A stretch of 24,340 bases of DNA, from the UHGV virus genome UHGV-1426191; one strand, written 5' to 3'. The DNA is from a virus. Below are positions 2,491-2,646 of the stretch, in pieces; positions within the stretch are counted from its first letter, which is position 1; each line of letters begins with the position of its first letter. The notes below the pieces were generated by a model that was not told where the DNA came from, searched no databases, and saw only the letters and a list, made by a program, of their open reading frames with translations. Made by a program: the position numbers and the translations under genes.

Positions 2491-2565
2491 GGGTCAGTCG
2501 TATAAAGGTCATTACGGAAGGCTGTTAACCTTCTTATCGTGGTTCGAGTCCACGCTGTCCCGCCA
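2491..2565 (+). tRNA. tRNA-Asn (anticodon GUU)-like
   Basis: Hand-folded cloverleaf: acceptor GGGTCAG/CTGTCCC (one T-T mismatch), perfect anticodon stem GAAGG/CCTTC with loop CTGTTAA (anticodon GTT), T-arm CGTGG-TTCGAGT-CCACG, encoded CCA. D-stem is weak (3 bp). Confidence 0.6.
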
Positions 2566-2570
2566 AATAT

Positions 2571-2646
2571 GCTGGTTTAGCTCCAATGGTAGAGCAGTCG
2601 CCTTGTAAGCGAATGGGTAGCGGTTCAAGTCCGTTAACCAGCACCA
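2571..2646 (+). tRNA. tRNA-Thr (anticodon UGU)
   Basis: Acceptor GCTGGTT/AACCAGC (7 bp perfect), D-arm GCTC-CAATGGTA-GAGC, anticodon loop CTTGTAA (anticodon TGT), T-arm AGCGG-TTCAAGT-CCGTT, discriminator A plus encoded CCA. Confidence 0.7.

What the first reader, a model, noticed from the sequence alone, without database searches (positions are those of the whole stretch)
2491..2646. Two phage-borne tRNA genes (Asn-GUU-like and Thr-UGU) between Q and the lysis cassette
Two back-to-back cloverleafs with encoded CCA sit on the late transcript upstream of S. The Asn-like one has an acceptor-stem T-T mismatch and a short D-stem, so it may be degenerate or functionally altered. Phage tRNAs can supplement codons over-used in late genes. 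There is also an AAU codon in the A-site position of the candidate chaperone slippery site, but a link is speculative.
Basis: seen in the sequence. Interest (0 to 1): 0.5.

Follow-up and report, generated by a model that had tools for sequence, protein, structure and literature searches.

The report
Known lambdoid late-operon tRNA-Asn/tRNA-Thr cassette
These are two genuine, well-conserved phage tRNA genes, already annotated in phage 21, Sf6 and HK446. They sit directly behind the late-gene terminator, and they most likely give the phage spare tRNAs that bacterial tRNA-cutting defence enzymes cannot destroy.

Summary
ARAGORN calls tRNA-Asn(GUU) at 2491-2565 and tRNA-Thr(UGU) at 2571-2646. Rfam tRNA scores are 55.3 and 61.5 bits against a threshold of 29.

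The pair is not new. It is 99-100% identical to annotated tRNAs of phages 21, Sf6, SfI, BTP1 and HK446, and occurs in about 22% of complete E. coli genomes.

It starts on the base after the tR' terminator of a phage-21-type Q/pR' unit, so expression should depend on Q antitermination (inferred, not measured).

The Asn tRNA is not degenerate. Stems show compensatory changes, the U4·U69 mismatch is retained across diverged copies, and E. coli's own glyT has the same 3-bp D-stem.

Codon supplementation gets only weak support. ACA is 2.3-fold enriched, but so are other host-rare codons, and Asn shows little bias.

A better-supported function is counter-defence. The Thr sequence is base-identical to the HK446 Thr(UGU) that a 2026 preprint reports to counter the P2 OLD tRNase. 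Asn(GUU) and Thr(UGU) are two of the three main targets of PARIS AriB, and both window tRNAs differ from the host at all three mapped AriB determinants (U16, U39, position 41). The PARIS link is untested, and the cassette lacks Lys(UUU), the primary PARIS target.

The parts
1887..2399 (+). Late antiterminator Q, phage-21 type. The start equivalent to the phage 21 Q start is at 1911.
   Evidence: 161/162 aa identical to phage 21 Q. Pfam PF06530 Phage_antitermQ, 87 bits.
2406..2441 (+). Late promoter pR': -35 TTGACA at 2406-2411, Q-binding element ATTGAGCAAATGAGCA at 2414-2429, transcription start near 2441.
   Evidence: Mapped from the curated phage 21 record OL657228.1 (offset +899). The sequence is almost identical to phage 21 in the alignment. 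The generic promoter scan did not detect it.
2443..2490 (+). tR' intrinsic terminator of the late leader: stem 2443-2481, then T-run 2480-2486 and ATTT.
   Evidence: Annotated as a terminator in phage 21 and Sf6. The RNA fold is -20.2 kcal/mol, z -4.7. The loop is too long for the simple terminator scan.
2491..2565 (+). tRNA-Asn, anticodon GUU at 2524-2526, discriminator G, encoded CCA. It has U4·U69 and U13·U22 mismatches and a 4-nt variable loop.
   Evidence: ARAGORN. Rfam 55.3 bits. Covariation. It is the commonest variant in IMG/VR, 83 of 120 loci.
2566..2570 (+). 5-nt spacer AATAT between the two tRNAs.
   Evidence: the spacer is AATAT in 45 loci and AACAT in 46 loci.
2571..2646 (+). tRNA-Thr, anticodon UGU at 2604-2606, with G1-C72, C2-G71, discriminator A and encoded CCA. 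It has a G27·A43 mismatch and C14.
   Evidence: ARAGORN. Rfam 61.5 bits. Covariation. 100% identical to the HK446 tRNA-Thr(UGU).
2654..2703 (+). Conserved hairpin directly after tRNA-Thr. It marks the right end of the conserved cassette (boundary about 2708).
   Evidence: Fold of 2647-2790 gives -63.8 kcal/mol, z -5.6. The hairpin is conserved in phage 21, Sf6 and HK446. It is followed by a T-run in 23/96 loci (phage 21 type) and by ACACATG in 53/96 (window type).
2728..2774 (+). Second GC-rich hairpin in the lambda-type leader of S (GGCAGGAGG...CCTCCTGCC, then GTTTTG).
   Evidence: -28.2 kcal/mol, z -3.9. Shared with Sf6 and HK446 but not phage 21. No Rfam match even at E<=1.
2889..3212 (+). 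Holin S (lambda S107/S105 type), the first protein-coding gene of the late operon.
   Evidence: Pfam PF05106, 105 bits. The homologue is annotated 'phage holin, lambda family'.

Best explanation
[quoted passage not shown] Together they form a known, mobile cassette of lambdoid phages. The cassette runs from the T-run of the late terminator tR' to a hairpin just after tRNA-Thr (about 2487-2708). It is found behind several different late-control units (phage-21-type, lambda-type and others) and in front of different lysis cassettes. How it is made is inferred from the anatomy. RNA polymerase starts at pR' (about 2441) and stops at tR' unless it has been modified by Q. With Q it reads through, so the tRNAs are the first products of the late transcript. 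RNase P and 3' exonucleases should then release them, and no CCA addition is needed because CCA is encoded. What it most likely does is supply replacement tRNAs during late protein synthesis that escape tRNA-cleaving abortive-infection nucleases carried by competing prophages and satellites. For tRNA-Thr(UGU) there is experimental support on an identical sequence: the HK446 Thr(UGU) counters the P2 OLD tRNase. For both tRNAs, resistance to PARIS AriB-type cleavage is predicted from sequence but untested. Extra capacity to decode the host-rare ACA codon is a plausible secondary benefit.
For: Identity as real tRNAs. The ThrRS identity pairs G1-C72 and C2-G71 and the AsnRS elements G34-U35-U36 and G73 are conserved (the identity rules are from my own knowledge).

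Already known: the pair is annotated in phage 21, Sf6, SfI, BTP1 and SPN9CC. It occurs in 116 phage records and in 1184 of 5426 E. coli genomes.

Placement: tRNA-Asn starts on the base after the annotated tR'. 109 of 120 IMG/VR loci have a T-run within 16 nt upstream. Of the 120, 92 have a 21-type terminator, 11 a lambda-type and 17 another kind. In HK446 the same junction, TTTTTTATTT|GGGTCAG, follows a lambda-type tR'.

Counter-defence, OLD: the 156-nt pair is 100% identical to HK446, which has only these two tRNAs. bioRxiv 10.64898/2026.07.10.737580 reports that P2 OLD depletes E. coli Thr(UGU), cutting after nt 27-29. It reports that expressing E. coli Thr(UGU) has no effect, whereas HK446 Thr(UGU) restores plaquing of OLD-sensitive HK97, HK542 and Bas34 to near wild-type levels. 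Window nt 27-29 are GUC against host ACU. OLD-sensitive HK97, HK75 and HK542 have no tRNA in the Q-lysis region, whereas OLD-evading HK446 does.

Counter-defence, PARIS: AriB cleaves Lys(UUU), Thr(UGU) and Asn(GUU) at 40|41, next to U36-A-A-U39. In tRNA-Lys, U39->A abolishes cleavage, A41->C inhibits it and U16->C impairs it. T5 variants of the three tRNAs neutralise PARIS (PMC12409363). Host thrU, asnT and lysT read UAAUCA, UAAUCC and UAAUCA and all carry U16. Window Thr reads UAAGCG with A16, and window Asn reads UAACCU with A16. PARIS also restricts lambda (PMC9122126).

Against the rivals: the cassette is 97-100% identical in phages with unrelated late genes, including podoviruses Sf6 and BTP1, siphoviruses 21 and HK446, and this myovirus-type prophage.
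Against: Nothing here measures expression, processing or charging. Dependence on Q is inferred from position. The OLD result comes from a preprint and used plasmid-expressed tRNA. In that study the tRNA alone did not rescue lambda or OLD toxicity in a recB mutant. A library screen of HK446 recovered the protein inhibitor Oad2, not the tRNA, so HK446's natural escape may owe little to the tRNA. The cassette lacks Lys(UUU), the primary PARIS target that was required in every rescue experiment, and it lacks four of the five OLD targets. The AriB determinants were mapped on tRNA-Lys, not on Thr or Asn. Restoring the site in T5 tRNA-Lys did not restore cleavage, so the rules are incomplete. P1's Asn(GUU) has a host-like UAAUCA. 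A non-U39 base is expected fairly often by chance. About half of all E. coli isoacceptors are now known targets of some nuclease, so overlap of anticodons alone is weak evidence. ACA really is over-used in the late genes.
Confidence: 0.55

Rival explanations
1. Pure codon supplementation. The tRNAs exist only to raise the supply of decoders for codons that the late genes use more than the host does: ACA for Thr(UGU), and AAC/AAU for Asn.
For: ACA is 12.8 per 1000 codons in 6,501 late-gene codons, against 5.6 per 1000 in a 15,118-codon E. coli K-12 sample (Fisher p 1e-7). It is the second most enriched codon. The SfI paper found ACA at 17.3% against 7.1% for the same pair (PMC3636060). The phage L paper notes that 24 of 25 Asn codons in its capsid gene are AAC (PMC8022706). 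thrU is the only Thr(UGU) gene I know of in K-12 (its annotation is; that it is the sole copy is my own knowledge).
Against: TCA, ATA, AGG, CGG, GGG, AGA and GGA are enriched about 2-fold as well, and no phage tRNA covers them here, so the ACA signal reflects generally weak codon bias. The capsid gene (10538-11479) uses ACA for 1 of 21 Thr. Asn is only 1.27-fold enriched, and K-12 has four asn genes. The SfI authors called the role of tRNA-Asn 'not clear'. The same sequence serves phages with unrelated late gene sets. Expressing E. coli Thr(UGU) did not rescue phages from OLD whereas the phage version did, so sequence matters and not just dose.
Confidence: 0.3
2. The Asn gene is a decaying or non-functional tRNA relic. 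This was the first reader's worry, based on the U·U acceptor mismatch and the short D-stem.
For: U4·U69 and U13·U22 are real. Some related phages carry a clearly degraded second tRNA: the 72-nt 'Leu(UAA)' of phage L is not called by ARAGORN.
Against: The Rfam score of 55.3 bits is nearly twice the threshold. Six stem pairs show compensatory double changes, and 0/500 shuffles reach the observed covariation score. The anticodon is invariant, and G73 and the T-loop are nearly so. The U4·U69 mismatch persists in the diverged Klebsiella-type clade while flanking pairs co-vary. The same D-arm (GUAU/UUAC) is found in E. coli glyT. The D-arm itself was fixed by the search pattern, so its conservation is not independent evidence.
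Confidence: 0.04
3. The tRNAs act mainly as RNA-processing signals. RNase P and RNase E cleavage at the cloverleafs removes the pR'-tR' leader and creates a defined 5' end for the lysis and structural mRNA. Decoding would be incidental.
For: The cassette has a fixed position directly after tR' in several contexts, and a conserved hairpin follows it.
Against: Lambda, HK97, HK75 and HK542 run the same late operon without it (for lambda this is my own knowledge). Anticodons and synthetase identity elements are conserved, which a processing signal would not need. The HK446 Thr tRNA works in trans from a plasmid.
Confidence: 0.05
4. The tRNA compensates for a host tRNA gene disrupted by prophage integration, as the OLD preprint suggested for HK446.
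For: HK446 and many relatives integrate into a tRNA gene, thrW.
Against: The cassette lies in the late operon, about 14 kb from attP. It is Thr(UGU), not thrW's Thr(CGU). It is paired with Asn, and it sits behind a terminator that should silence it in a lysogen. [quoted passage not shown]
Confidence: 0.02
5. The phage tRNA-Asn tunes the -1 frameshift at the tail-chaperone slippery site G GGA AAU.
For: The heptamer is at 15583-15589 in a PF21822 chaperone gene. The -1 frame stays open for 82 codons. AAU is in the A-site.
Against: Near-identical (99.4%) copies of the pair are present in podoviruses such as Sf6 that have no tail chaperone, and an identical pair is in HK446, which has a different tail module. 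Nothing in the tRNA's anticodon loop differs from the host's CUGUUAA.
Confidence: 0.03

Closest known systems
The tRNA-Asn/tRNA-Thr pair of coliphage 21, Shigella phages Sf6 and SfI, Salmonella phage BTP1 and coliphage HK446
   Same: The sequence is 99.4-100% identical over all 156 nt, with the same order, spacing and position between tR' and the holin. The upstream Q, pR', QBE and tR' are those of phage 21.
   Different: Nothing differs in the tRNAs. The surrounding phage differs: this window couples the phage-21 late-control unit to a lambda-type S/R lysis cassette and a SEN34-like myovirus structural module.
[quoted passage not shown]
   Same: Two of the three anticodons are the same. The A31-U39 pair is replaced by a G:C pair, position 41 is changed, and U16 is changed in Asn, as in T5 Lys and Asn.
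   Different: There is no Lys(UUU) partner. There are two genes in a temperate phage's late operon, rather than an early array of about 24 in a virulent phage. Resistance to AriB has not been tested. T5 Thr keeps U16.
Phage Thr(UGU) tRNAs that counter the P2 OLD tRNase (T4, Bas32, Bas33, HK446; bioRxiv 10.64898/2026.07.10.737580)
   Same: The window tRNA-Thr is the HK446 sequence, base for base.
   Different: The preprint treats it as a single tRNA, possibly linked to integration. Here it is shown to be half of a late-operon pair behind tR' and widespread in lambdoid phages.
The ileZ-argN-argO tRNA genes downstream of Q in Stx-converting lambdoid phages such as 933W (my own knowledge)
   Same: tRNA genes occupy the same slot, between the late terminator and the first late protein genes.
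   Different: The anticodons differ (Ile and Arg rare-codon readers) and the sequences are unrelated.
Phage P1 tRNA-Asn and tRNA-Thr pair
   Same: They are back to back, in the same order (Asn then Thr), with the same anticodons. P1 Thr is about 80% identical and also has G39.
   Different: The genomic context is different (between dmt and tciA). P1 Asn is unrelated in sequence and keeps the host-like U39-C40-A41.

Membership tests
tRNA (Rfam RF00005) | Covariance-model score at or above the gathering threshold over the full model | tested here: met
   55.3 and 61.5 bits against 29, model positions 1-71 of 71. ARAGORN calls both.
tRNA (Rfam RF00005) | Four-helix cloverleaf maintained by selection (compensatory changes) | tested here: met
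   Six pairs with double-sided changes in each tRNA. 0/500 shuffles reach the observed covariation score, and slid controls give 0-3. The sequences are closely related, so statistical power is modest. The Asn D-arm was fixed by the search pattern.
tRNA (Rfam RF00005) | Canonical loop elements: U33, purine 37, G18-G19, T-loop UUCRA | tested here: met
   Seen directly in the sequence. The exception is C14 instead of A14 in Thr.
tRNA (Rfam RF00005) | Produced, processed and aminoacylated in vivo | not testable with these tools
   Synthetase identity elements are present. The identical HK446 Thr rescues phages in trans (preprint), which implies function. There are no data for Asn.
Lambdoid late-operon tRNA cassette (phage 21 / Sf6 type) | Sequence identity to the phage 21, Sf6 and HK446 pair | tested here: met
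   99.4-100% over 156 nt.
Lambdoid late-operon tRNA cassette (phage 21 / Sf6 type) | Located between tR' and the holin gene, downstream of a Q antiterminator | tested here: met
Nuclease-resistant replacement tRNAs (counter-defence) | Same anticodon as a host tRNA targeted by a defence tRNase | tested here: met
   Thr(UGU) is a target of OLD, PARIS AriB and HepS. Asn(GUU) is a target of PARIS AriB. This is weak on its own, because many isoacceptors are targets of some nuclease.
Nuclease-resistant replacement tRNAs (counter-defence) | Substitutions at the nuclease's recognition or cleavage positions, relative to the host tRNA | tested here: met
   AriB determinants U16, U39 and position 41 are all changed in both tRNAs. 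The OLD cut region, nt 27-29, is changed in Thr.
Nuclease-resistant replacement tRNAs (counter-defence) | Demonstrated resistance to cleavage and rescue of phage growth | not testable with these tools
   Literature only. HK446 Thr(UGU), identical to the window sequence, restored plaquing of HK97, HK542 and Bas34 on OLD+ cells. It did not rescue lambda or OLD toxicity. There are no data for AriB or for Asn.
Nuclease-resistant replacement tRNAs (counter-defence) | Covers the set of tRNAs needed to bypass the system | tested here: not met
   No Lys(UUU) was found in any of 120 cassettes, yet Lys was required for PARIS bypass. Only one of the five OLD targets is present here.
Codon-compensating phage tRNAs | The cognate codon is specifically over-used by the phage relative to the host | tested here: inconclusive
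   ACA is 2.3-fold enriched (p 1e-7), but seven other rare codons are equally enriched. Asn is 1.27-fold enriched.
Codon-compensating phage tRNAs | The codon is enriched in the most highly expressed late genes | tested here: not met
   The capsid gene 10538-11479 uses ACA for 1 of 21 Thr codons.

The most novel reading that the evidence does not exclude
The Asn(GUU)-Thr(UGU) pair is a dedicated, Q-gated anti-tRNase module of temperate enterobacterial phages. Both tRNAs would have been selected to resist TOPRIM nucleases of the OLD/PARIS family carried by P2-like prophages and P4-like satellites. This would explain three things: why these two anticodons travel together in lambdoid phages and, independently, in P1; why the long-unexplained tRNA-Asn is retained; and why the module is placed so that it is the very first product of late transcription. 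The implied prediction is that some natural AriB or OLD variants have Thr(UGU) plus Asn(GUU), without Lys, as their decisive targets. No paper I could find or read links this lambdoid cassette to PARIS. The AriB specificity paper does not mention lambdoid or temperate phages.
Probability: 0.35. Interest if true: 0.6.

Novelty: already known. Interest (0 to 1): 0.33.

Why it matters
As a sequence feature this is ordinary. The genes have been annotated for over twenty years and occur in roughly a fifth of complete E. coli genomes.

What is worth keeping is the functional reading. The role of this cassette, and of its tRNA-Asn in particular, has been described as unclear in the phage genome papers I could read. 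Very recent work on PARIS and OLD now offers a concrete, testable explanation.

If it is right, thousands of E. coli, Shigella and Salmonella prophages carry a small RNA-only counter-defence module. That would bear on prophage competition, on predicting the host range of temperate phages, and on interpreting phage tRNAs that codon usage does not explain.

It also corrects a detail in the OLD preprint. HK446 has two tRNAs, not one. They lie in the late operon, not at the integration site.

Tried and rejected
- The generic promoter and terminator scan of 2200-3000 found nothing. I relied instead on the curated phage 21 annotation, an alignment and RNA folding.
- A permissive Rfam scan of 2380-2900 found only the two tRNAs. 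The structured 240-nt spacer matches no known RNA family.
- One similarity search used a tRNA sequence recalled from memory that turned out to be thrW (the P22-type attP), not thrU. It was uninformative and was discarded.
- Three papers could not be read: Guo et al. 1991 on the phage 21 late region and Sargen & Helaine 2024. The Sf6 genome paper (Casjens 2004) was not sought. The supplements of the AriB paper are not held, so I rebuilt its figure S3 comparison from genome records.
- A literature search for expression data on the BTP1 tRNAs gave nothing relevant.
- Colicin E5, which cuts Q34-containing tRNAs including Asn, was considered as the selective agent for tRNA-Asn. The phage anticodon loop CUGUUAA is identical to the host's, so no escape is evident.
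- HepS was considered for Thr. The anticodon loop is again host-like, so this is unresolved.
- The cassette's alternative member Gly(UCC) was checked for OLD-escape changes. It differs from host glyT at only 3-4 positions and keeps nt 27-31, so it does not support the OLD reading.
- I could not test co-occurrence of the cassette with PARIS or OLD across genomes with the tools available.
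Full report
**Observation.** ARAGORN finds exactly two tRNA genes in the window. They are tRNA-Asn (anticodon GTT) at 2491-2565 and tRNA-Thr (anticodon TGT) at 2571-2646, both on the + strand. These are the coordinates given in the finding. Rfam's tRNA model matches both end to end, at 55.3 and 61.5 bits against a gathering score of 29, with E-values of 1e-9 and 3e-11. Both carry an encoded CCA. It also flags G27·A43 in Thr. Thr additionally has C14 where A14 is almost universal.

**Context.** Upstream lies Q (1887-2399), which is 161/162 aa identical to phage 21 Q and matches Pfam Phage_antitermQ. Downstream lies a lambda-family holin S (2889-3212).
- The curated phage 21 record places the following features in order: the pR' -35, the Q-binding element, the transcription start, a sigma-dependent pause element, the tR' terminator, and then tRNA-Asn on the very next base.
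- The window is almost identical to phage 21 across this stretch. That gives these window coordinates: -35 at 2406-2411, QBE at 2414-2429, start near 2441, and tR' at 2443-2490.
- The tR' hairpin folds at -20.2 kcal/mol, z -4.7.
- The rest of the window is a lambdoid prophage with a SEN34-like myovirus structural module. Its best matches are E. coli prophages at 95-97% identity.

**It is already known.** The 156-nt pair is 100% identical to phages HK446 and Bas106, and 99.4% identical to phage 21, Sf6 and SfI. Most of these records annotate it as tRNA-Asn and tRNA-Thr. A 361-nt query centred on the pair matches 116 phage records and 1184 of 5426 complete E. coli genomes. The SfI and phage L genome papers describe the pair and its position downstream of Q (PMC3636060, PMC8022706).

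**The cassette is a mobile module.**
- I scanned IMG/VR with the Asn D-arm and retrieved 120 loci. The combinations were Asn+Thr in 96, Asn+Gly(UCC) in 7, Asn+Phe+Thr+Arg(UCU) in 4, and other mixes in the rest. None had Lys.
- In 109 of the 120, tRNA-Asn begins within 16 nt of a terminator T-run. The terminator is 21-type in 92 loci, lambda-type in 11 and another kind in 17.
- HK446 has a lambda-type Q and tR', yet the junction TTTTTTATTT|GGGTCAG is the same as here.
- On the right, conservation runs through a hairpin at 2654-2703. That hairpin is followed by a T-run in the phage 21 type (23/96 loci) and not in the window type (53/96).

**Is tRNA-Asn degenerate? No.**
- Across 18 distinct Asn variants, six stem pairs change on both sides while keeping the pairing, among them 5-68, 6-67, 7-66, 28-42 and 29-41 in standard tRNA numbering (4·69 is the sixth pair counted). 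None of 500 shuffles reaches the observed covariation score, and slid controls give at most two such pairs. Thr behaves the same way.
- The anticodon is invariant. The discriminator base and the T-loop are nearly so.
- U4·U69 remains unpaired in 16 of 18 variants, including the diverged Klebsiella-type clade whose neighbouring pairs have co-varied. It is therefore a retained feature and not a recent lesion.
- The 3-bp D-stem GUAU/UUAC with U13·U22, the U8-C9 and the 4-nt variable loop are shared with E. coli's own glyT. The 'short D-stem' thus occurs in a working host tRNA.
- One caveat applies: the D-arm was fixed by my search pattern, so its conservation is not independent evidence.

**Codon supplementation.**
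- In 6,501 late-gene codons, ACA is 12.8 per 1000. In a 15,118-codon K-12 sample it is 5.6 per 1000 (p 1e-7).
- TCA, ATA, AGG, CGG, GGG, AGA and GGA are enriched to the same degree, and no phage tRNA covers them here.
- The capsid gene uses ACA for 1 of 21 Thr codons.
- Asn codons are only 1.27-fold enriched, and K-12 has four asn genes.
- The same tRNA sequences serve podoviruses, siphoviruses and this myovirus-type prophage.
- The SfI authors reached the same split verdict and called the role of tRNA-Asn unclear.
- I conclude that codon supply is at best a secondary benefit.

**Counter-defence: OLD.** Three recent papers change the picture.
- A July 2026 preprint shows that the P2 OLD protein is a tRNase. 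It depletes E. coli Thr(UGU), Gly(UCC), fMet, Val(UAC) and Pro(UGG), cutting after nt 27-29.
- Expressing E. coli Thr(UGU) did nothing. Thr(UGU) from T4, Bas32, Bas33 and HK446 restored plaquing of OLD-sensitive HK97, HK542 and Bas34.
- HK446 has exactly two tRNAs, and they are base-identical to the window pair. That experiment was therefore done on this very Thr sequence.
- Window nt 27-29 are GUC against host ACU.
- OLD-sensitive HK97, HK75 and HK542 have no tRNA in the Q-lysis region. The sample is tiny, and HK446 also makes the protein inhibitor Oad2.

**Counter-defence: PARIS.**
- PARIS AriB cleaves Lys(UUU), Thr(UGU) and Asn(GUU) between nt 40 and 41, beside U36-A-A-U39.
- In tRNA-Lys, U39->A abolishes cleavage, A41->C inhibits it and U16->C impairs it.
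- The T5 versions of these three tRNAs together neutralise PARIS (PMC12409363).
- I extracted the genes from genome records. Host lysT, thrU and asnT read UAAUCA, UAAUCA and UAAUCC at nt 36-41, and all have U16.
- Window Thr reads UAAGCG with A16. Window Asn reads UAACCU with A16.
- T5 Thr, Asn and Lys read UAAGCA, UAAGUU and UAAACC.
- Both window tRNAs therefore differ from the host at all three mapped determinants.
- PARIS is reported to restrict lambda as well (PMC9122126).
- HepS of Gifsy-1 also cleaves Thr(UGU), as a secondary target (PMC13043305).

**Limits of the counter-defence reading.**
- The PARIS link is inference only.
- The cassette never includes Lys(UUU), which was needed in every PARIS rescue.
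- The determinants were mapped on tRNA-Lys and are incomplete.
- P1's Asn keeps a host-like site.
- A base other than U at position 39 is not rare.
- So many isoacceptors are now known nuclease targets that overlap of anticodons alone means little.
- For OLD, the tRNA alone did not rescue lambda or OLD toxicity. An HK446 library screen found Oad2, not the tRNA.
- The cassette's Gly(UCC) variant is nearly identical to host glyT, so it shows no sign of escape.

**Other readings.**
- The preprint's suggestion that the HK446 tRNA compensates for an integration site does not fit. The gene is Thr(UGU), not thrW. It lies 14 kb from attP, behind tR', and next to an Asn gene.
- A pure RNA-processing role does not explain the conserved anticodons and synthetase identity elements.
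- The slippery site G GGA AAU (15583-15589) is real. It lies in a PF21822 chaperone gene, and the -1 frame stays open for 82 codons. However, the cassette is near-identical (99.4%) in podoviruses such as Sf6 that lack such a gene, so a dedicated link is unlikely.

**Verdict.** The best current explanation is that these are Q-gated replacement tRNAs that escape defence tRNases. For Thr this has preprint-level experimental support on the identical sequence. For Asn it is a sequence-based prediction, and it would give this long-unexplained gene a role.

Noticed in passing
window 15583-15589 (gene 15188-15640): Slippery heptamer G GGA AAU near the end of a tail-assembly-chaperone gene (Pfam PF21822). 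The -1 frame stays open for 82 codons, to about 15834, over the region annotated DUF6889 in the E. coli counterpart. It differs from the lambda G/GT site G GGA AAG, as I remember it, only in the last base. GGA is read by Gly(UCC) and AAU by Asn(GUU), and both species occur in variants of the tRNA cassette. This is probably coincidence.
   Followed up: partly
window 2647-2790: The spacer between tRNA-Thr and S is strongly structured (-63.8 kcal/mol, z -5.6). Hairpin 2654-2703 belongs to the conserved cassette and is followed by a T-run in phage 21 but not here. A second hairpin at 2728-2774 ends in GTTTTG. There is no Rfam match even at E<=1.
   Followed up: partly
L120 (IMG/VR contig), cassette region: One contig carries Asn, then a chimeric Thr(UGU), then a glyT-like Gly(UCC) 3 nt later. 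In the chimera, nt 1-26 are the phage sequence and nt 27-76 are identical to host thrU. This looks like recombination between the phage cassette and the host thrU-tyrU-glyT-thrT operon, and it may explain how Gly(UCC) entered the cassette. An assembly artefact is not excluded.
   Followed up: partly
window 2491-2565 compared with L004 674-748 (E. coli glyT): The body of the phage tRNA-Asn resembles host glyT. Both are 75 nt long and have U8-C9, the D-arm GUAU/UUAC with U13·U22, and a 4-nt variable loop. The Asn gene may derive from a Gly(UCC)-like scaffold.
   Followed up: no
L008 1081-1152 (phage L / ST64T): At the position of tRNA-Thr, phage L has a 72-nt tRNA-like sequence annotated tRNA-Leu(UAA). 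ARAGORN does not call it. It keeps a Thr-like acceptor stem but has C33 and a very short variable region. It is probably a decayed or re-purposed relative.
   Followed up: partly
window 2584 (tRNA-Thr position 14): tRNA-Thr has C14 opposite U8, instead of the near-universal A14. A few IMG/VR variants have U14. Its D-loop alpha region reads CAAU against the host's AGUA.
   Followed up: no
L006 (HK446, NC_019714.1) 35097-35252: The RefSeq record of HK446 annotates no tRNA, and the OLD preprint speaks of 'a single' Thr(UGU). ARAGORN finds two, Asn and Thr, in the late operon behind a lambda-type tR' and 14 kb from attP.
   Followed up: yes
L010 (phage P1) 2425-2578: P1 carries its own back-to-back Asn(GUU) then Thr(UGU) pair in an unrelated genomic context. 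P1 Thr has G39 like the lambdoid one, while P1 Asn keeps the host-like UAAUCA.
   Followed up: partly
L007 (Klebsiella phage Mulock) 1501-1820 and IMG/VR loci L017, L076: Klebsiella-type relatives expand the cassette to Asn-Phe(GAA)-Thr-Arg(UCU), with Gly(UCC) added in one locus. In these the cassette sits about 90 nt after the terminator rather than directly against it.
   Followed up: partly
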